Shown here piece by piece: positions 8,694 through 18,934 of a DNA stretch of 64,000 nt (position 1 is its first letter; each line of letters begins with the position of its first letter). Where the stretch lies: positions 13,114 to 77,113 of the forward strand of contig CANIKO010000010.1 of the NCBI GenBank assembly GCA_947468275.1, in the 5' to 3' direction. This DNA is from Bacteroidota bacterium (lineage in GTDB: Bacteria > Bacteroidota > Bacteroidia > NS11-12g > UBA9320). The notes under the pieces were generated by a model that saw nothing but the letters and a program-made list of their open reading frames with translations, was not told where the DNA came from and did not search any database. The position numbers were made by a program, and so were the translations under genes.

Positions 8694-9179
8694 TTAGTGT
8701 GTTTTAGTAATTATTTTCAATAAATCGTCTTCCAAATTTTTTATTGGACTTTCTACTATTCTTCCCTGTTCATTCCCTGTTTTATCAATAATAATAAAGG
8801 TTGGAACAAATTTGATTTGAAATTTTTCATAATCTTTGGGAATCTGTTTTTCTTGGTTTACAAAAACAATTTTAAGGTTTTCGGTTGAAAATTGTTTGGT
8901 TTCTAAAATTTTAATAAATCGTGGTAGTTGAAGCCTTGTATCGCTGCACCATTCTCCTCCAACGATAATAATTTTCAAATTGTTCAATCCCAAAAGAGAA
9001 TCATAACCTTTTTCTGAAAGCGTATAATTTTTGTATTCTTCCTTAAACCAAAGGTACTGTTTCAGTTCATTTAGGGAAACCACCCCGGTTTTATAGTCTT
9101 CCTTTCGTGGATGGTGTAAAAGCGTGCAGCCTAAAATAAGACTCAATAAAATAGGGATTAAAATTTTAAGTCGGCTCAT
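8694..9179 (-). CDS. Thioredoxin-fold lipoprotein
   Basis: Lipobox LILGC; GGEWCSDT thioredoxin-like monothiol motif. Confidence 0.55.
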   Translation of the reverse strand: MSRLKILIPILLSLILGCTLLHHPRKEDYKTGVVSLNELKQYLWFKEEYKNYTLSEKGYDSLLGLNNLKIIIVGGEWCSDTRLQLPRFIKILETKQFSTENLKIVFVNQEKQIPKDYEKFQIKFVPTFIIIDKTGNEQGRIVESPIKNLEDDLLKIITKTH

Positions 9180-11124: not shown

Positions 11125-11197
11125 GGTGCGGTAGCTCAGTCGGTAGAGCAAAGGACTGAAAATCCTTGTGTCGCCGGTTCGATCCCGGCCCACACCA
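11125..11197 (+). tRNA. tRNA-Phe (anticodon GAA)
   Basis: Cloverleaf: acceptor GGTGCGG/CCACACC, D-arm AGCTCAGTCGGTAGAGC, anticodon loop CTGAAAA, T-arm GCCGGTTCGATCCCGGC; no encoded CCA. Confidence 0.85.
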
Positions 11198-11205
11198 CTT
11201 TTACT

Positions 11206-12306: not shown

Positions 12307-12744
12307 TTATAAAATGTTTTCTTTGTCTAACAAATAAAGCAATCCAAGCTTATACCCTTCCAATCCCAAGCCTGAAATATTTCCTTTGCAGGCTCCCAAC
12401 AGCAAATCATGGTGGCGAGCCGTTTCACGATTGTAAATATTAGAAATATGAATACCTAAGACGGGTGATTTAATAGATTTTACAGCATCGGCAATAGCTA
12501 CGCTGGTGTGGCTATAGCCTCCGGCATTTAGTAAAATACCGTCCATTTCAAATCCCCATTCCTGTATTTTATTAATTAATTCTCCTTCAATATTACTTTG
12601 AAAATAGTGTACTACTGTTGTGTCCTTAAACTGGCTTTTAAGTTCCTTAAAGTAATCTTCAAAGGATTTATCTCCATAAATTTCCGGTTCGCGTTTGCCC
12701 AATAGATTAAGGTTGGGGCCATTTATGATTCCTATTTTTTTCAA
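12307..12744 (-). CDS. aroQ: Type II 3-dehydroquinate dehydratase
   Basis: (TTG-start) MKKIGIINGPNLNLLGKREPEIYG... canonical AroQ N-terminus; 145 aa. Confidence 0.9.
   Translation of the reverse strand: MKKIGIINGPNLNLLGKREPEIYGDKSFEDYFKELKSQFKDTTVVHYFQSNIEGELINKIQEWGFEMDGILLNAGGYSHTSVAIADAVKSIKSPVLGIHISNIYNRETARHHDLLLGACKGNISGLGLEGYKLGLLYLLDKENIL
12675..12743. repeat. Direct repeat copy 1 (aroQ 5' end, functional copy); partner at 13295-13363
   Basis: 69 bp, ~5 mismatches to 13295-13363: gttcgcgtttgcccaa[t/g]agattaaggttggggccatttatgattcctatttttttca. Confidence 0.85.
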
Positions 12745-12809
12745 ATAAAATTATTGAACCACAAAGAAACAATTTAAATAGTTTAGTGTAAATATTTTAT
12801 TTTTGATTT

Positions 12810-13058
12810 ATGATTTCAGATTATTTAAATGCTGCTATGCATCTAGCCAAATATGAATTTCTTCCAAACGACAAATTGTATTATGGCGAGATTGATGAGT
12901 TTAAAGGGCTTTATGCGAGTGCTACCAATTTAGAATTATGCCGGGATGAATTGATGTCAACTCTTGAGGATTGGGTGCTTTTCAGCATTCATAAAAATCT
13001 GCCATTACCAATTATAAATAATCTTAACTTGCAAATTAAGGATTTGGCAGATGCCTGA
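12810..13058 (+). CDS. hicB: Putative HicB-like antitoxin (UPF0150-like)
   Basis: 82 aa, overlaps downstream HicA gene by 8 bp; weak similarity to HicB/UPF0150 small antitoxins. Confidence 0.45.
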   Translation: MISDYLNAAMHLAKYEFLPNDKLYYGEIDEFKGLYASATNLELCRDELMSTLEDWVLFSIHKNLPLPIINNLNLQIKDLADA

Positions 13059-13275
13059 TTTTGGAAATATTTCCAGAAAGGACTTAATAAAGGCCTTGCA
13101 ATTACTCGGTTTTGAAGGTCCGTTTTCAGGTGGAAAACATCAATTTATGTTGAAAAGCGGATTGCGGCTTACCATTCCCAATCCCCATCAGTCAGACATT
13201 GGAATAGATTTGCTCAATAAAATTTTAAAACAAGCAGATATTTCAAAAATAGAATGGAGAAATTTAAAACTTTAA
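13051..13275 (+). CDS. hicA: HicA (YcfA-like) mRNA-interferase toxin
   Basis: 74 aa; LLGFEGPFSGGKHQFMLKSGLRLTIPNPHQSDIGIDLLNKILKQADIS matches the HicA G-(S/K)-H...IP.H....IG..L...ILKQ pattern. Confidence 0.65.
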   Translation: MPDFGNISRKDLIKALQLLGFEGPFSGGKHQFMLKSGLRLTIPNPHQSDIGIDLLNKILKQADISKIEWRNLKL

Positions 13276-13294
13276 CGTATCAAATCTTATAGAT

Positions 13295-13363
13295 CATAAA
13301 TCTCTAGTTCGCGTTTGCCCAAGAGATTAAGGTTGGGGCCATTTATGATTCCTATTTTTTTCA
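13295..13363. repeat. Direct repeat copy 2: remnant duplicate of aroQ 5' end (would encode VKKIGIINGPNLNLLGKRELEIYDL*)
   Basis: Near-identical to 12675-12743; reading frame stops after ~25 codons. Confidence 0.85.
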
Positions 13364-13690
13364 CTTGTCTCCTTTTTCTTTAGCTTTTTTCTTTAGCAAC
13401 TTTTTTATTAATTCCGATTGTTCAGCAACTAATTTAATAAGATATTTTAAAGTTGTTTTGTCTTCCTTTTCTAGCTCATTTATGGGATTAAAATCATCAA
13501 TAAAACTATCAAATTCCTCCTTTGTTATTTTTAATGCTGTAAATATTTCACTTAGTTTTTCATCATTTATAACGATTCTGTGTTCCAAATCTGAATATGC
13601 TTTTTGCGATATACCCAATTTAAGAGCTATATAGTCTTGAGAAAAATCTCCTTGTCGTCTTATTTTACGAAGTGTTTCGCCGTGGTGCAT
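13361..13690 (-). CDS. XRE-family helix-turn-helix transcriptional regulator
   Basis: 109 aa; LRKIRRQGDFSQDYIALKLGISQKAYSDLE HTH_3 motif; C-terminal Lys-rich tail. Confidence 0.7.
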   Translation of the reverse strand: MHHGETLRKIRRQGDFSQDYIALKLGISQKAYSDLEHRIVINDEKLSEIFTALKITKEEFDSFIDDFNPINELEKEDKTTLKYLIKLVAEQSELIKKLLKKKAKEKGDK

Positions 13691-13698
13691 ATTTGCTT

Positions 13699-13813
13699 GG
13701 GTATAAGTTAGAAGTAAAACTACTAACTTAGAAGTTATCCAGCTAGCTTATGCCAAAAATAAACTATTTACTTTGTTCTTGTATTGCAATACAAAAAATC
13801 AAATGCCTTGAAC
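13699..13813 (+). promoter_or_regulatory. Repeated leader element R, copy 1 (contains perfect palindrome TTGTATTGCAATACAA at 13779-13794)
   Basis: 115 bp ~93% identical to 15781-15897; lies in the divergent region between XRE regulator and Cys-rich protein gene. Confidence 0.6.
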
Positions 13814-13853
13814 AAATGATAGGCATTAAAAAAAATTTAAATTAAATACAAAA

Positions 13854-14393
13854 ATGAAAAGATTATTTAAACTCTTTGTTATAAGCAGTTTCTTATTATT
13901 CTCTTCGAATTCGTACTCAAGGGCAATTGGGACATTGATTAATGGTGTCCCAACAGTATCAGTAACAAATGAAGAATTTCAAACTCAATTGAATCTTCTG
14001 TCAAGCTGCACTTGTGGTATTTCAAATATTAACCTTGTTAGCACCTCAATAAGCTATAATCCTTCATCAGGAGGATTATTAAAACTGTCGTTTACGTGCA
14101 ATATAGCCAATGAGGTAGGGTTAATGAGAGTCAATATTACTAAGGAATTATCTTATGATAGTGGTAATAACGAATTCCATGTAATAAACGGTGGTGCAAG
14201 TAGAACTTGTATTGGTAAAAATTGTCTAAGTCGTTGTGACGTTGAAGGAGTAGGCTGTACCCCATGTGGTAGAGCCGACAATACTGAGATGCCCGCAACT
14301 TGCACAATGGCAACAGCTGAACAAGAAGGATGTATCTGGGGTTGTCTAGGAACGCTTTTTTTTGGCTGGTTAATTAGTTTATTTTGTTGCTAA
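13854..14393 (+). CDS. Secreted cysteine-rich protein (13 Cys) with hydrophobic C-terminal tail ending in CC
   Basis: Signal peptide MKRLFKLFVISSFLLFSSNSYS; C-terminal third TCIGKNCLSRCDVEGVGCTPCG...CTMATAEQEGCIWGCLGTLFFGWLISLFCC. Confidence 0.6.
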   Translation: MKRLFKLFVISSFLLFSSNSYSRAIGTLINGVPTVSVTNEEFQTQLNLLSSCTCGISNINLVSTSISYNPSSGGLLKLSFTCNIANEVGLMRVNITKELSYDSGNNEFHVINGGASRTCIGKNCLSRCDVEGVGCTPCGRADNTEMPATCTMATAEQEGCIWGCLGTLFFGWLISLFCC

Positions 14394-14453
14394 GTTTATT
14401 CTTGAGGGATACAATATCTTTCAAAGTTCTTTCTATTTCAACGTTAAAATTTT

Positions 14454-15581
14454 ATGATAAGAAAAATCTCTCTTTTTTTAGTTAACACTATACTGAGCTA
14501 CTTCCTTTCAGATATAGCTTTTTCTCAAAATATTAGAGAAGTAGAAATAAGAAATCATAATTATTTTAGTTCTACTAATCAAGTCATAGAAATTAAATAT
14601 ACATCAAAAACGAGAGATAATGCTAATTCCATCACAAGGCGTTATTTATTAAATTTAGAGAGCCTTAATAAAGGTTCTCTAAATTTAAATTATGTTGAAA
14701 ATAACTCTAAACTATATTTTAAATTTGTTAATAATGACTTGTATTTCAAACATCCTGATAGCATTAACTATATATTATTTGAACCAATAAATAAAAAAAG
14801 GAAGCCACCAAGTAATGTTTTTTTTTTAAAATATCTGCCTTTGTCTTGCACTTCCTTTTTTTTAAAAAATAGTTTTGAATCAGAGGATAGTAATTTTCAA
14901 ACTTGCGCCGGTGACACTTTTATTTTGGAACAAGTATCAAAGAAATTAGAAGTTGTACGAAAATTATACCTTGACAAAAATTTGCAGATTTTTAAAACAG
15001 AATATACTAGTACAGATTCAAATAGCCTTCAAGAAAAATGGCAATATGAATATAAAATATATAAAAATATTGAATTGAGTCAACTGGCAGATTCATTAAA
15101 ATTTGGCCCATTTAATAAAGAAAATTTTATAAAGAATAGTTATATTAATAAAGAAAGTACTATAATTTATGACGGCAAGACACATGTTCCATTGACAAAT
15201 AAAAAAACACTAATCCTTGATACAACTAAAATTAAATATTATATAATTGACTTATGGTATATAGGCTGCAAACCATGCAGTATGTTAAGACCTTATCTTG
15301 AAAAAATTTACACGAATATCGATACTTCAAAAGCAATTATGTTAGGATATAACGAATTTGATATTATGGAGGATATTAACACATATTTAAAAAGAAAAAA
15401 TTTTCAAATTCCAGAAATTGATAACTCTTCATTTTATTTGGAACAATTTCATACAAATATGCACCCTACCGTTCTTATCCTTGATAAAAAATTCAAGGTG
15501 ATAGAGACTTATGTTGGATATTCTACTTTAAATATTCTTAAAATTAGAACATTTCTCAAAGCAAAGAAATTGTTTTTGTGA
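14454..15581 (+). CDS. Secreted DUF4369-like + TlpA-like thioredoxin-fold thiol-disulfide oxidoreductase (CKPC active site)
   Basis: Signal peptide; C-terminal ~130 aa LILDTTKIKYYIIDLWYIGCKPCSMLRPYLEKIY...HPTVLILDKKFKVIETYVGY fits TlpA/AhpC-TSA fold with CxxC. Confidence 0.6.
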   Translation: MIRKISLFLVNTILSYFLSDIAFSQNIREVEIRNHNYFSSTNQVIEIKYTSKTRDNANSITRRYLLNLESLNKGSLNLNYVENNSKLYFKFVNNDLYFKHPDSINYILFEPINKKRKPPSNVFFLKYLPLSCTSFFLKNSFESEDSNFQTCAGDTFILEQVSKKLEVVRKLYLDKNLQIFKTEYTSTDSNSLQEKWQYEYKIYKNIELSQLADSLKFGPFNKENFIKNSYINKESTIIYDGKTHVPLTNKKTLILDTTKIKYYIIDLWYIGCKPCSMLRPYLEKIYTNIDTSKAIMLGYNEFDIMEDINTYLKRKNFQIPEIDNSSFYLEQFHTNMHPTVLILDKKFKVIETYVGYSTLNILKIRTFLKAKKLFL

Positions 15582-15626
15582 TAAAGACAAACTCGTTAGC
15601 ACATTTCTTGTAAAAATGCAATCCAA

Positions 15627-15786
15627 TGTCACCTATCTTTGCGGCAATGCGGCACATAGCATTTCTCCTTTTTACTTTCCCTCTTCTTTTGTTGGCACAA
15701 AACAAAGAACCTATTACTATTAATAATGCCGATTATCTGGATTTTAATAAAAACTATGCCAATGCCGAGCGGTTAGTAGTGGTATA
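15627..15786 (+). pseudogene. Duplicated 5' fragment of the OstA-like gene at 17429 (MSPIFAAMRHIAFLLF...NKNYANAERLVVV*)
   Basis: ~165 bp (15615-15780) ~88% identical to 17418-17582; frame terminates inside repeat R copy 2. Confidence 0.75.
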
Positions 15787-15897
15787 AGTTAGAAGTAAAA
15801 ACTACTAACTTAGAAGTTATCCAGCTAGCTTATGCCAAAAATAAACTATTTTCTTTGTTCTTGTATTGCCATACAAAAAAAAGGAAGAGCCTTGAAC
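15781..15897 (+). promoter_or_regulatory. Repeated leader element R, copy 2 (imperfect palindrome TTGTATTGCCATACAA at 15861-15876)
   Basis: Aligns to 13699-13813 with one 1-bp indel and a divergent 8-bp patch. Confidence 0.6.
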
Positions 15898-15934
15898 CTT
15901 TTAGATGGGCGTTAAAAATTTAAAAAAAATTATT

Positions 15935-16654
15935 ATGAACTTTTTTAAAAAATTATCTATACCCTTTCTTCTTTCTTTTACCCTAATTTTTACAGAATGT
16001 AAGAAAGAAGCTATCACTGATGTAAATTACTCTGAAATTAAAACTCCTGAACAACTGCTTGATTCCCCAAATGATCCTATAAATGAAAATATGTATTATG
16101 TAAAGGATTTTAATTTTCATTTGGATGGAGTTCCTGTGGCATATGAAACAATAGATTCGCTTTTTGATAATATATTGTACTCGGATTTTCCTGACACATT
16201 AAATGTATTTTGCTTTACAAATCTTGCTGCTTTTGATGATTACTTAACAGGAAATCCTAATAAAGCAGATGTATTAAAGGATATAAATGATATGGATAGT
16301 ATTGCGGCATTAATTCCTGACTCTTTAGATGATGAAATGAAATCTCCTGTAAAGGTAATCCCAGGTCAAATTGCACTTCTAAATGGGTCGTATTCGATTT
16401 CTGGTTTTGATATGCCAACTCCAACCACTAATGGAGACGGATTTACATCATGGACGCCTAAACTTAATCTTGGAAGTATGAATAATCGTGTAACTGGAAT
16501 TACTTTTTGGGCAATTACTGGTTCATTTTCGGTTTGGTGTACAAAGAAAAATTTCAAAGGAATGAAAAATTTCTATTGGGGATTTCCCTTTTTTGGAGGA
16601 AGATATATTTTAACAGATGTTAGATGGAACAATAATTTCATGTCTGTTTATTAG
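15935..16654 (+). CDS. Hypothetical lipoprotein
   Basis: MNFFKKLSIPFLLSFTLIFTEC lipoprotein signal; no recognised domain. Confidence 0.5.
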   Translation: MNFFKKLSIPFLLSFTLIFTECKKEAITDVNYSEIKTPEQLLDSPNDPINENMYYVKDFNFHLDGVPVAYETIDSLFDNILYSDFPDTLNVFCFTNLAAFDDYLTGNPNKADVLKDINDMDSIAALIPDSLDDEMKSPVKVIPGQIALLNGSYSISGFDMPTPTTNGDGFTSWTPKLNLGSMNNRVTGITFWAITGSFSVWCTKKNFKGMKNFYWGFPFFGGRYILTDVRWNNNFMSVY

Positions 16655-16717
16655 GGTTATAGATAATTTATAGTATTAAAAGTTAATGTGTAAATTGGCA
16701 TTGTAAATAAAAGTGTA

Positions 16718-17359
16718 ATGACTAAGGTAAAAAAAACAGTATTATTTTTTACAATTATTTTTCAATTTATCGCAATGAGGAGTTTTTGTAATGATACTTC
16801 TAATCTTAAAAAGTCCCAATTAAAAACCAAAAATTTTTACATTGGAATTCTGCTTGCACCTGCATATTTAGGTGGCTATGAGCAAAAATCTTTAGGAAAA
16901 AAATCAGGCCATATACCTTTTTTGTATAATCTAGGAAGTATTTTTTCTGAATACACTATCCTTAATAGGTATTCAGTTTTTGCAGGTTTTTCCTACGGTT
17001 ATAATTACTTCAGAGACACTATTAATGTCGGAAGCCTTGGTGGAACTTGTGGATTAAGATATAATATTCCACTTACAACAAAAAAGAAAAAGGAAGAAAA
17101 TAAACCAACATTACTTTATGCGCAAATTGGGCTTGGTTACACTAAAGGTTATTATTATAATGCCCCTAATTTAATAAGAATAAACAGACAAATAGAATGT
17201 TTTGGTCTAAACTTAGGTGTGAGTTTTATCCCATCTAAATTGTTTAAAAAAGCAAATTCTAATTTTATTATTGATTATTCAGTTGTCAAACCTTTTTATA
17301 ATGTGAAAAATAAAGAAGATCAATTTTTCGGTGGATTTGGAATTAAGTATAAGATTTAA
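16718..17359 (+). CDS. Putative outer-membrane beta-barrel protein
   Basis: Signal peptide, alternating aromatic/Gly-rich strands (GFSYGYNYF, GLGYTKGYYYN), C-terminal GGFGIKYKI. Confidence 0.4.
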   Translation: MTKVKKTVLFFTIIFQFIAMRSFCNDTSNLKKSQLKTKNFYIGILLAPAYLGGYEQKSLGKKSGHIPFLYNLGSIFSEYTILNRYSVFAGFSYGYNYFRDTINVGSLGGTCGLRYNIPLTTKKKKEENKPTLLYAQIGLGYTKGYYYNAPNLIRINRQIECFGLNLGVSFIPSKLFKKANSNFIIDYSVVKPFYNVKNKEDQFFGGFGIKYKI

Positions 17360-17363
17360 TCTA

Positions 17364-17402
17364 AAGAAAAGCTTACAATTTTTTGTAAGCTTTTCTTTTT
17401 TG
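17364..17402 (+). terminator. Rho-independent terminator
   Basis: Perfect 13-bp stem gaaaagcttacaa/ttgtaagcttttc, 4-nt loop, T-run. Confidence 0.7.
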
Positions 17403-17428
17403 AATATTGCTTTTTTAAATCCAATGCA

Positions 17429-18934
17429 ATGTTTCCTATCTTTGCCGCAATGCGGATACTAGCATTTCTTATTTTTTGTTTTCCGGTTCTTTTGTTGGCA
17501 CAAGACAAAGAACCCATTACTATTAACAACGCCGATTATCTGGATTTTAATAAAAACTATGCCAATGCTGAGCGCTTGGTAGGCCATGTGAGTATGAGCC
17601 AAGGCAATATGACCCTAACCTGCGACAGTGCCTGGTTTTGGAAAGATGAAAACAAAATGGAAGCGTTTGGTCATGCGTTTTTAAACCAATCGGGAGGAAC
17701 CATGGTGTGGAGCGACTACATGTTGTATAACGGCAATACCAAAATGGCCAGCGCCCAGCGCAATGTGAGAATGACTGACGGAAAAATGAGCCTAACCACA
17801 GATGCCATTCAATACGATGTAACCAATAAAATAGCCTATTATACCACCGGTGGAAATATTAAAGATGGCGAAAATACCATGACCAGCCGCTCGGGAAGTT
17901 ATTATTCCAAAAGCCGGGAGTATTTTTTTAAAGGAAAAATAAAATTGGTAAACCCCGAATATACAATGACAAGTGATACCTTGAATTATAACGGAAATAC
18001 AGAAACCGCTTATTTCTTTGGGCCAACGTATATAACAAGTACCGATAATCTTCTTTTTTGCAACTATGGCTGGTATGATACCAAAAAAAATACCTGTCAG
18101 TTTAGCAAACGAGCCTATATATTGAGTAAGGAAAACCGAATTGATTCAGACAGTTTTTTATACAATCGCAATACGGGCATTGGTCGGGCATTTGGAAATA
18201 TTACCTTGACCGATACGGTTCAAAAAATTGTAATTAAAGGCAAAAAAGGAATTCACAAGCGCTTTGAAAAAACTACTTTGGTTAGCGGGAATGCTATAGC
18301 CTTTAAAAAACTAGAAGATGATTCTCTGTTTATAAAAGCCGATTATTTTTTTGATAAACTGGATACTGCCAGCAAAAAAAGAACTTTAGCAGCTTATGGT
18401 GGTGCCAAAATTTTTAAACCTGATTTGCAAGGAATGGCGGATAGTTTAAGTTATTCTTTAACCGATTCGGTCATTCGGTTTTTTAAAGAACCTGTACTAT
18501 GGAACGAAGCCAATCAAACCACCGGCGATACTATTTTTATTTTTCAGAAAGGAAAAACCATTGACAGAATGGTGGTGTTGCAAAATGCAATGGTGGTAAT
18601 GGAAGATGCCCCGGGATTATACAATCAGATAAAAGGCAAAAAACTGTATGGATTGTTTGCAAAAAACAAATTGTACAGGGTAAATGTGCGTGGCAACGGG
18701 CAAAGTGTGTATTATGCCAAAGAAAATGAAAATAAATATTCGGGTGTAAATTATGTGGAATGCACCAATATGATTATAGCCATTGATTCTAATAAGGTTA
18801 AAAAAGTAACTTTTTTGGTGTCGCCCAAAAGCACCTTTTATCCTATTGATAAATTTCCGGCCGAACGGGCCAAACTTCGGGGGTTTAGCTGGCTGATAGA
18901 AAAACGTCCCAAACGGAAAGATTTCGAGTTTTAG
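17429..18934 (+). CDS. OstA-like (LptD N-terminal/LptA-fold repeat) periplasmic protein
   Basis: 501 aa; signal peptide then repeated OstA_N-like beta-jellyroll segments (MTLTCDSAWFWKDENKMEAFGHAFLNQ...); Bacteroidetes 'OstA-like protein' family. Confidence 0.65.
   Translation: MFPIFAAMRILAFLIFCFPVLLLAQDKEPITINNADYLDFNKNYANAERLVGHVSMSQGNMTLTCDSAWFWKDENKMEAFGHAFLNQSGGTMVWSDYMLYNGNTKMASAQRNVRMTDGKMSLTTDAIQYDVTNKIAYYTTGGNIKDGENTMTSRSGSYYSKSREYFFKGKIKLVNPEYTMTSDTLNYNGNTETAYFFGPTYITSTDNLLFCNYGWYDTKKNTCQFSKRAYILSKENRIDSDSFLYNRNTGIGRAFGNITLTDTVQKIVIKGKKGIHKRFEKTTLVSGNAIAFKKLEDDSLFIKADYFFDKLDTASKKRTLAAYGGAKIFKPDLQGMADSLSYSLTDSVIRFFKEPVLWNEANQTTGDTIFIFQKGKTIDRMVVLQNAMVVMEDAPGLYNQIKGKKLYGLFAKNKLYRVNVRGNGQSVYYAKENENKYSGVNYVECTNMIIAIDSNKVKKVTFLVSPKSTFYPIDKFPAERAKLRGFSWLIEKRPKRKDFEF

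What the first reader, a model, noticed from the sequence alone, without database searches (positions are those of the whole stretch)
13854..15581. Cys-rich secreted protein paired with a dedicated DUF4369/TlpA-like thiol-disulfide oxidoreductase (CKPC)
The 179-aa product has a signal peptide and 13 cysteines, most of them clustered in the last 60 residues. It has an unusual hydrophobic C-terminus ending in ...GTLFFGWLISLFCC. The next gene encodes a secreted protein whose C-terminal domain has a thioredoxin/TlpA fold with a CKPC active site. This pairing resembles a disulfide-rich toxin, bacteriocin or adhesin cargo with its own oxidoreductase. Both genes sit in a mobile-looking, regulator-controlled cassette. 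The hydrophobic di-Cys tail could be a membrane anchor or a lipid-modification site, but I cannot assign it to a known family.
Basis: partly seen in the sequence, partly recalled or inferred. Interest (0 to 1): 0.7.

Follow-up and report, generated by a model that had tools for sequence, protein, structure and literature searches.

The report
Disulfide-knot protein with dedicated TlpA-like partner
A rare, fast-evolving pair of exported proteins in uncultured freshwater Bacteroidota, made of a small cysteine-knotted protein and its own thioredoxin-type enzyme, sits as one of several swappable cargo cassettes behind a conserved repressor-controlled promoter; its function is still unknown.

Summary
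13854-14393 encodes a 179-aa exported protein with 13 Cys, and 14454-15581 a 375-aa exported protein with WYIGCKPC in a TlpA/ResA-like C-terminal domain. DUF4369 was not found.

Both families are very rare: 19 cluster representatives among 1.84 billion, and no Pfam or NCBIfam model. The pairing is real. In every homologous locus with readable downstream DNA, from two lineages only about 21-25% identical, the Cys-rich gene is followed within 0-60 nt by the same 373-387-aa partner.

The closest genome has aroQ directly beside the OstA-like gene, so the 4.65-kb stretch 12745-17398 is an accessory island. It holds HicAB, an XRE repressor, and two cassettes. Each cassette follows a copy of one ~160-nt regulatory region, whose first ~100 nt are 98% identical, and the two are separated by a duplicated OstA 5' end.

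The toxin/bacteriocin reading is untested and has no exporter to support it.

The parts
13854..14393 (+). Cys-rich exported protein, 179 aa. Layout: signal peptide 1-22; alpha+beta roll domain ~25-118; six-Cys knot 119-150, which is the hypervariable segment; C-terminal helix 155-175; terminal CC.
14454..15581 (+). Partner protein, 375 aa. Layout: signal-like N-terminus; ~240-aa N-terminal domain of unknown fold; C-terminal TlpA/ResA-like thioredoxin-type domain. The WYIGCKPC motif spans residues 268-275 (CKPC at 272-275, nt 15267-15278); cis-Pro P338.
13361..13690 (-). XRE-type HTH regulator (109 aa), divergently transcribed from the cassette.
   Evidence: HTH_3, 32.9 bits against cut-off 23. 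Homologous regulators sit in the same position in L001, L004, L005, L007 and L037.
13700..13853 (+). Regulatory region P, copy 1. It has direct repeats TAA(G/C)TTAGAAGT at 13704-13715 and 13724-13735, a perfect palindrome TTGTATTGCAATACAA at 13779-13794, and a short hairpin before the ribosome-binding site.
15596..15779 (+). Displaced 5' end of the OstA_2 gene: the native upstream region plus codons 1-51, ending in a stop. It separates the two cassettes.
   Evidence: 84% identical to 17399-17582; its upstream region matches that of the empty-site genomes
15781..15934 (+). Regulatory region P, copy 2. It is 98% identical to copy 1 over ~100 nt; its palindrome is at 15861-15876.
15905..17359 (+). 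Second cassette with unrelated cargo: an exported ~240-aa protein (15905 or, more likely, 15935 to 16654) and an exported beta-rich 213-aa protein (16718-17359). Neither has a family match.
17429..18934 (+). Intact OstA_2/LptD_N-like gene. Its 5' end (17399-17582) is the second copy of the duplicated segment. This gene is the right boundary of the island.
12810..13275 (+). HicB (12810-13058) and HicA (13051-13275) toxin-antitoxin pair, bracketed by 69-nt direct repeats of the aroQ 5' end (12675-12743 and 13295-13363). This is the left part of the island.
   Evidence: L009 has HicAB alone at this site

Best explanation
The two genes form a co-transcribed, co-inherited envelope module.

- The small protein is exported by Sec. 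It folds into a helix-on-curved-sheet (alpha+beta roll) domain that carries a compact knot of six invariant cysteines, followed by a C-terminal helix.
- That helix is amphipathic in much of the family. In this lineage it is hydrophobic enough to sit in a membrane.
- The downstream gene encodes an exported fusion of an uncharacterised ~240-aa domain with a TlpA/ResA-type thiol:disulfide oxidoreductase domain (CKPC).
- The most likely mechanism, which is inferred, is this: the N-terminal domain of the partner docks the small protein, and the CxPC site reduces or reshuffles its cysteines so that the knot reaches its correct state. Dedicated Trx-fold enzymes serve single substrates in the same way.
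- What the matured protein then does is not shown. The fold resemblance suggests binding of a lipid or other hydrophobic ligand at the envelope.
- Several features suggest a role in conflict or surface variation rather than housekeeping: the presence/absence polymorphism, the hypervariable mosaic knot segment, the toxin-antitoxin neighbours and the repressor control.
- The module is one of at least four unrelated exported cargoes that are exchanged behind the same conserved XRE-regulator/promoter platform, between aroQ and an OstA-like gene.
For: Pairing:
- The same partner family lies 0-60 nt downstream in the window, L001, L004, L005, L037, L031-33 and L034/35. A 386-387-aa gene sits in the same place on two contigs without DNA.
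- No terminator lies between the two genes.

Redox domain:
- W268, C272, P274, C275 and P338 are invariant across 7 partners that are only 21-45% identical.
- The profile hits Bacteroides TlpA-like proteins (2lrn/4grf, 2lja) and ResA at E about 1e-5.
- The full-length homologue in L039 passes the Pfam AhpC-TSA and Redoxin cut-offs.

Substrate:
- Exactly six Cys plus N123 are invariant in 19 sequences.
- The knot is modelled at pLDDT 87-89.

Accessory and exchanged:
- Empty site in L006 (OstA 96% identical), L008 and L012. HicAB only in L009. Other cargo behind the same P region in L007, L037 and window cassette 2.
- The module proteins are 45-49% identical between genomes whose OstA is 79% identical.
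- Between the window and L002 the knot segment has dS 1.37, against 0.14 in the N-domain. That pattern indicates a mosaic allele.
Against: - No enzymatic, structural or expression data exist.
- The partner could not be modelled (pLDDT 43), so neither docking nor even the Trx fold is shown in 3D.
- The window protein's own Trx profile scores are below the curated cut-offs.
- Conserved adjacency also fits a toxin-immunity or stable-complex relationship.
- Partner-like proteins also occur without a Cys-rich neighbour (L039).
Confidence: 0.55

Rival explanations
1. Bacteriocin-like or membrane-active toxin plus a maturation/immunity protein. The disulfide-knotted protein would be an antibacterial effector whose variable knot loops set target specificity. 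The partner would fold it and/or protect the producer.
For: - Hypervariable, mosaic knot segment between invariant cysteines.
- Strain-variable island next to a toxin-antitoxin pair.
- Dedicated Trx-fold helpers for disulfide bacteriocins are known from sublancin and pediocin (my own knowledge).
Against: - Nothing at the locus would take the protein across the outer membrane.
- dN/dS in the variable segment is 0.2-0.4, not above 1.
- The partner's catalytic motif is strictly conserved, which an immunity protein would not need.
- Nothing was found in phage, plasmid or viral collections.
Confidence: 0.15
2. Envelope-level phage exclusion or surface-masking module. It would be moron-like cargo under a CI/XRE-type repressor, and the alternative cassettes at the site would be alternative exclusion devices.
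For: - The regulator resembles phage and defence-system regulators: PHROG repressors at E about 1e-5, PADLOC HTH_VI at 7e-6, capH at 1e-3.
- All alternative cargoes are exported proteins.
- The site behaves as a hot spot and carries toxin-antitoxin modules.
Against: - There are no phage genes in or near the island.
- The pair has no PADLOC or PHROG match.
- No homologue was found in 50,697 phage genomes or in IMG/VR.
Confidence: 0.15
3. Periplasmic metal-handling protein (Cu or Zn). Its cysteines would be kept reduced by the TlpA-like partner, as TlpA does for ScoI and CoxB.
For: - TlpA-family enzymes are reductants for Cys-ligand metal sites (established knowledge; reviews listed).
- One CxxC and closely spaced Cys are present.
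- The only sequence hit in the PDB is a zinc RING, at E 0.52.
Against: - That PDB hit is not significant.
- No His or Met ligands are conserved.
- No metal transporter or oxidase genes are adjacent.
- Hypervariable inter-Cys loops and strain-variable presence are unusual for a metallochaperone.
Confidence: 0.1
4. Chance ORFs, or decaying genes with no function.
For: Very few homologues and no family model.
Against: - Homologues at 21-99% identity are spread over two lineages.
- The cysteines are invariant.
- dN/dS is 0.05-0.15 in the N-domain.
- The AF2 model is confident.
Confidence: 0.02

Closest known systems
TlpA / ResA / CcmG-type periplasmic thiol:disulfide oxidoreductases, including the Bacteroides TlpA-like proteins 2lrn/4grf and 2lja
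   Same: - Exported Trx-type domain.
- W...CxPC active site, as in ResA (CEPC) and TlpA (CVPC).
- cis-Pro 'PTxxLxD' loop.
- Best profile matches at E about 1e-5.
- These enzymes serve one or a few dedicated Cys-containing substrates.
   Different: - Three residues lie between W and the first Cys (WYIGC).
- A ~240-aa N-terminal domain has no detectable family.
- The window protein scores below the family cut-offs.
- The substrate family is new, and the gene is strain-variable cargo rather than a housekeeping gene.
Dedicated Trx-fold helpers of disulfide-containing bacteriocins: BdbA/BdbB with sublancin 168, PedC with pediocin PA-1 (my own knowledge; not checked in papers here)
   Same: A Cys-rich exported product is encoded beside its own thiol-disulfide enzyme, on accessory DNA.
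   Different: - Those systems belong to Gram-positive bacteria.
- Their peptides are short with leader sequences, and they have an ABC/C39 exporter and immunity genes.
- Here the product is a 157-aa folded domain with a Sec signal and no exporter.
TULIP/BPI-like lipid-binding proteins: BPI, PLUNC, Takeout/JHBP, SMP domains, bacterial YceB/P47, and Bdellovibrio TipA with its operonic adapter TipB (bioRxiv 10.1101/2025.09.09.675085)
   Same: - A helix packed on a long, strongly curved antiparallel sheet, with a C-terminal helix.
- TipA/TipB is a precedent for a bacterial TULIP protein with an operonic partner.
   Different: - Only about 105 residues align, at 7-14% identity.
- Foldseek is not significant.
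- The six-Cys knot insert has no counterpart.
- No cavity or lipid has been demonstrated.
- The partner here is a redox enzyme, not a beta-sandwich adapter.
Gene-cassette arrays (integrons; the recombinase-associated orphan immunity gene arrays of Bacteroidales, recalled from memory)
   Same: Unrelated small cargo units are stacked in tandem behind repeated conserved non-coding sequence at one chromosomal site, and the content varies between strains.
   Different: - No recombinase lies within about 5 kb on either side, and there is no attC-like 3' element.
- The repeat is a promoter/operator region.
- The junction duplicates 184 nt of the neighbouring gene's 5' end.
- Exchange can be explained by homologous recombination between the conserved flanks.

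Membership tests
TlpA/ResA-like thiol:disulfide oxidoreductase (thioredoxin fold) | CxxC active site preceded by Trp, at the start of helix 1 | tested here: met
   WYIGCKPC at residues 268-275. W268, C272, P274 and C275 are invariant in 7 homologues.
TlpA/ResA-like thiol:disulfide oxidoreductase (thioredoxin fold) | Conserved cis-Pro loop | tested here: met
   P338 is invariant, in HPTVLILD / YPT(V/L)YLL. That it is cis is inferred from the alignment to ResA.
TlpA/ResA-like thiol:disulfide oxidoreductase (thioredoxin fold) | Profile score above the curated family cut-off | tested here: inconclusive
   - Window protein: Thioredoxin_2 23.5 bits against a cut-off of 27; ResA model 28 against 170.
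- Family profile against the PDB: E 9e-6.
- The full-length homologue in L039 passes AhpC-TSA (35.9 against 26) and Redoxin (31 against 26.6).
TlpA/ResA-like thiol:disulfide oxidoreductase (thioredoxin fold) | Thioredoxin fold in three dimensions | tested here: inconclusive
   The AF2 model from 3 sequences has pLDDT 43. The C-terminal secondary-structure order is compatible with the fold, but the model is unusable.
DUF4369 (N-terminal domain of many Bacteroidota TlpA-like proteins) | Match to the Pfam DUF4369 profile | tested here: not met
   No hit at E<=0.1 for the window protein, and none at E<=1 in any of 5 family members.
TULIP/BPI-like lipid-binding fold | Significant structural superposition on family members | tested here: inconclusive
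TULIP/BPI-like lipid-binding fold | Hydrophobic tubular cavity that holds a lipid | not testable with these tools
Bacteriocin operon with dedicated oxidoreductase | Export and processing machinery (ABC/C39 transporter, leader peptide) and an immunity gene | tested here: not met
   The island holds only HicAB, the HTH regulator and the two cassettes. No transporter or peptidase families were found.
Bacteriocin operon with dedicated oxidoreductase | Antibacterial activity of the product | not testable with these tools
   This needs an experiment.
C-terminal sorting or lipidation signals (T9SS CTD, PEP-CTERM, GlyGly-CTERM, LPXTG) | Signature motif, then a transmembrane helix, then a basic tail (or the ~80-aa CTD domain) | tested here: not met
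   - No NCBIfam or Pfam hit.
- The tail ends in CC with no basic residues.
- The tail is amphipathic in 7 of 19 members, and CC is present in only 8 of 19.
Site-specific integrative element or integron-like cassette | Recombinase gene associated with the array | tested here: not met
   No such ORF lies between 9241 and 23609. The flanking genes are tRNA-Phe, a GT2 glycosyltransferase, aroQ, OstA_2 and a prolyl oligopeptidase-like protein.
Site-specific integrative element or integron-like cassette | Empty site in relatives, and repeats at the junctions | tested here: met
   - Empty site in L006, L008 and L012.
- Repeats of 69 nt, ~100 nt and 184 nt.
- The same OstA(codon 51)|P junction occurs in L002.

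The most novel reading that the evidence does not exclude
The small protein founds a new family of bacterial TULIP-like envelope effectors. Its hypervariable disulfide-knot loop would set target specificity, and maturation would need a private TlpA-type enzyme. The locus would be a recombinase-free 'cassette platform', made of the XRE repressor, a palindromic operator/promoter and the OstA 5' arm. Freshwater Bacteroidota would use this platform to swap and stack unrelated two-gene exported modules.
Probability: 0.15. Interest if true: 0.7.

Novelty: new variant of a known kind. Interest (0 to 1): 0.45.

Why it matters
If the pairing works as inferred, it adds a new substrate family and a new domain architecture to the dedicated periplasmic thiol-redox systems. 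It would do so in a phylum whose envelope disulfide biology is poorly known. It would also give a handle on a piece of 'dark matter' that strains of abundant lake Bacteroidota gain and lose.

The surrounding platform may be of wider use for reading accessory-gene hot spots in uncultured Bacteroidota. It consists of one conserved repressor-and-operator region driving interchangeable exported cargo, stacked through duplication of a neighbouring gene's 5' end.

The practical limits are that the organisms are uncultured and no function is assigned.

Tried and rejected
- **Family scans of the 179-aa protein.** Pfam, NCBIfam, PADLOC and PHROGs found nothing, and Pfam found nothing in all 19 family members.
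- **PDB sequence search with the family profile.** Only a non-significant RING hit.
- **Foldseek against the PDB and viral structures.** Nothing significant. AFDB50 was not available.
- **Structure of the partner.** The 3-sequence alignment gave pLDDT 43, so I ran no fold search on it.
- **Pattern scan of 185,579 species genomes for the Cys-rich protein.** No relative was found. Two broader alignments were too divergent to yield search patterns.
- **Phage, plasmid and IMG/VR searches.** No match.
- **Rfam on the island and on the 550-nt element of L034.** No credible hit.
- **Homology between the other cargo proteins.** BLASTP found no similarity between the window's second cassette and the second cassette of L034/L035, between the L007 455-aa and L039 406-aa proteins, or between the first cargo genes of the L007 and L037 cassettes.
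- **5'-UTR hairpin in P.** Only weak covariation.
- **Rejected: the tail as a universal membrane anchor or lipidation site**.
- **Rejected: DUF4369**.
- **Rejected: chance ORFs**.
Full report
**1. What is in the sequence**

- ORF 13854-14393 (+) encodes 179 aa. By inspection it has a Sec-type signal peptide, MKRLFKLFVISSFLLFSSNSYS|RA.
- It has 13 cysteines, nine of them in the last 60 residues, and it ends ...GTLFFGWLISLFCC.
- Sixty nucleotides downstream, with no terminator-like site between, ORF 14454-15581 (+) encodes 375 aa. It has a signal-like N-terminus, and WYIGCKPC at residues 268-275 (nt 15267-15278 for CKPC).
- Divergently upstream lies a 109-aa HTH_3/XRE regulator at 13361-13690.
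No DUF4369 match exists in this protein or in four homologues.

**2. The partner is a TlpA/ResA-type protein by sequence, but not yet by structure**

- The window protein alone gives only sub-threshold thioredoxin matches: Thioredoxin_2 E 7e-5 at 23.5 bits against a cut-off of 27, and the ResA model at E 1.3e-6.
- A profile of seven family members matches the Bacteroides TlpA-like proteins 2lrn/4grf and 2lja, and Bacillus ResA, at E about 1e-5 over residues ~245-363.
- W268, C272, P274, C275 and the presumptive cis-Pro P338 are invariant in sequences only 21-45% identical.
- One full-length homologue (L039) passes the Pfam AhpC-TSA and Redoxin cut-offs.
- The AlphaFold model built from the three sequences I was allowed to use was poor (pLDDT 43). 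The fold is therefore inferred, not shown.
- The ~240-aa N-terminal domain matches nothing.

**3. The Cys-rich protein founds a small, uncharacterised family**

- A word-indexed search of 5.8 billion proteins found three close relatives.
- An exhaustive HMM search of 1.84 billion cluster representatives found 19 proteins at E<=1e-3. One of them is a spurious eukaryotic repeat protein.
- None of the 19 aligned members (the window protein, two close homologues and 16 of the representatives) has a Pfam family.
- The alignment shows a signal peptide, a conserved N-terminal domain, exactly six invariant cysteines (C119, C124, C128, C135, C138, C150) plus N123, and a C-terminal helix.
- The window protein's other seven cysteines, including the terminal CC, are lineage-specific. 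CC occurs in 8 of 19 members.
- The tail is membrane-like in the window's clade (mean Kyte-Doolittle hydropathy 1.7-1.9). In 7 of 19 members it is clearly amphipathic and too polar to span a membrane, for example WGEDLEGVITDIRAWLQE.
- The tail matches no known sorting signal.

**4. Fold of the Cys-rich protein**

- AlphaFold with the 19-sequence alignment gave pLDDT 81 and pTM 0.72. The knot is at 87-89 and the tail at only 60-66.
- The predicted order is two short strands, a helix, long antiparallel strands, the knot, then two C-terminal helices.
- Foldseek found nothing significant in the PDB or among viral models.
- I therefore treat 'lipid or hydrophobic-ligand binder' as a lead, not a finding.

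**5. The pairing is conserved**

- In the window's own clade, the Cys-rich gene is followed directly by the partner in L001, L004, L005 and L037.
- A second lineage is only ~21-25% identical and has different neighbours (PolX, a GT9 glycosyltransferase, SecDF). There the same two genes are 10-15 nt apart: L031-33 and L034/35, plus two contigs without DNA that carry a 386- or 387-aa gene in that position.
- I found no Cys-rich homologue whose readable downstream DNA lacked the partner. In L036 the downstream ORF is a 112-aa fragment that I could not assign.
- Partner-like proteins do occur without the Cys-rich gene (L039).

**6. The genes are accessory cargo in a recombination hot spot**

- Scanning species genomes with the neighbouring OstA_2 protein retrieved freshwater-lake MAGs. 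These are deposited as 'Chitinophaga pinensis' or 'Bacteroidia bacterium'.
- In the closest one (L006, OstA 96% identical), and in L008 and L012, aroQ lies directly beside OstA.
- L009 has only HicAB between them. L007 has the HTH regulator followed by unrelated cargo of 144 aa and 455 aa.
- In the window, the 4.65-kb stretch 12745-17398 is therefore an island, built as follows:
  - HicB/HicA, bracketed by 69-nt repeats of the aroQ 5' end.
  - The HTH gene.
  - Regulatory region P, then the Cys-rich/partner cassette.
  - A displaced OstA 5' end (15596-15779). It still carries the upstream sequence seen in the empty-site genomes.
  - A second copy of P (98% identical over ~100 nt).
  - An unrelated cassette of two exported proteins.
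  - The intact OstA gene.
- The identical OstA(codon 51)|P junction occurs in metagenome contig L002. There it is followed by a different allele of the Cys-rich gene.
- L037 shows a further stacked array with remnants.
- P is conserved in front of four different cargo types. It contains a palindrome, TTGTATTGCAATACAA, that is invariant at all but its two central positions, and two TAAnTTAGAAGT repeats. Exact copies of both motifs are found nowhere else in the 64-kb window. They are the obvious candidate operators for the regulator; that is an inference.
- No recombinase lies within about 5 kb. Exchange by homologous recombination between the P and OstA arms is the simplest explanation, and site-specific insertion is not excluded.
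- The second lineage shows the same logic with a different repeat. A 550-nt upstream element precedes both the pair and an unrelated two-gene cassette in L034/L035.

**7. Evolutionary rate**

- Between the window and L004, OstA is 79% identical. The Cys-rich protein is 49% identical and the partner 45%.
- Between the window and L002, the N-domain is 96% identical (dS 0.14). The 42-residue knot segment is 47% identical, with dN 0.44 and dS 1.37.
- Both rates jump together. This is a recombinant, mosaic allele rather than simple positive selection, and dN/dS stays at 0.2-0.4 in that segment.
- Elsewhere in the protein dN/dS is 0.05-0.15, so the gene is functional.

**8. Interpretation**

- *Shown:* a conserved, co-transcribed pair of exported proteins; a CxPC Trx-type domain in one; a six-Cys knot in the other; accessory, exchangeable status behind an XRE-controlled platform.
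- *Inferred:* the partner acts on the knot cysteines as a dedicated reductase or isomerase. This is how TlpA/ResA-type enzymes treat their substrates (established knowledge). The product would act at the envelope, possibly on a hydrophobic ligand, in some strain-variable interaction.
- *Rivals:* a toxin with a maturation/immunity protein; envelope-level phage exclusion; a metal site kept reduced. None is excluded.
  - The toxin reading lacks any export route across the outer membrane.
  - The phage reading lacks any phage homologue.
  - The metal reading lacks conserved non-Cys ligands.

**9. Verdict**

The DUF4369 label, the membrane-anchor/lipidation idea and the toxin label are not supported.

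This is a new substrate family and a new architecture within a known kind of system, embedded in an interesting cassette-swapping locus. Function remains unassigned and the hosts are uncultured, so I score interest as moderate.

Noticed in passing
window 12675-12743 and 13295-13363, bracketing 12810-13275: The HicB/HicA pair is flanked by 69-nt direct repeats (94% identical) of the 5' end of aroQ. Related genomes carry other two-gene modules on the opposite strand at the same spot (L001, L005), or HicAB alone (L009). The site is therefore a second swap point inside the island.
   Followed up: partly
window 15596-15779 vs 17399-17582; pseudo-ORF 15626-15787: A 184-nt duplication of the OstA_2 5' end (84% identical). 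The truncated copy keeps the native upstream sequence seen in empty-site genomes. The intact gene has a different upstream sequence, as if a replacement 5' end came in with the second cassette. The junction is identical in L002.
   Followed up: partly
window 15905-16654 and 16718-17359: The second cassette behind P copy 2 encodes two exported proteins with no match in any of the four libraries searched (Pfam, NCBIfam, PADLOC, PHROGs). The ATG at 15905 lies inside the conserved 5'-UTR hairpin of P, so the true start is probably the ATG at 15935 (MNFFKKLSIPF...). A remnant of the 213-aa gene occurs in L037 (39% identical over 69 aa).
   Followed up: partly
L034 3468-4017 and 6078-6626 (also L035; 69% identical copy in L031-33): A ~550-nt conserved non-coding element, 95% identical between its two copies, precedes two unrelated cassettes in the second lineage. 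It runs through the start codon and first codons of each cassette. It gives spurious long ORFs, including the N-terminal extension of P0024. It has no Rfam match, so it could be a long leader or an unknown RNA.
   Followed up: partly
L007 6294-8079; L037 2144-2641; L039 2454-6603; L041 516-1600: - Other cargo sits behind the same HTH/P platform: 144 aa plus 455 aa in L007, and a 165-aa Cys-containing exported protein in L037.
- L039 has a partner-like TlpA protein flanked by a small CSAC thioredoxin-like protein and two paralogous ~405-aa proteins.
- In L041 an IS3-type transposase pair lies directly upstream of a partner gene fragment.
   Followed up: no
window 14649-14688: An 18-bp imperfect-free inverted repeat with a 4-nt loop (TTAAATTTAGAGAGCCTTAATAAAGGTTCTCTAAATTTAA) lies inside the partner's coding region, at residues ~66-78. 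The corresponding peptide is not conserved in homologues. Its significance is unknown.
   Followed up: no
window 11125-11198 and 8694-9179: A tRNA-Phe(GAA) gene lies two genes to the left of the island. Further left is a separate 161-aa Thioredoxin_9-family protein. Neither appears to be linked to the cassette.
   Followed up: no
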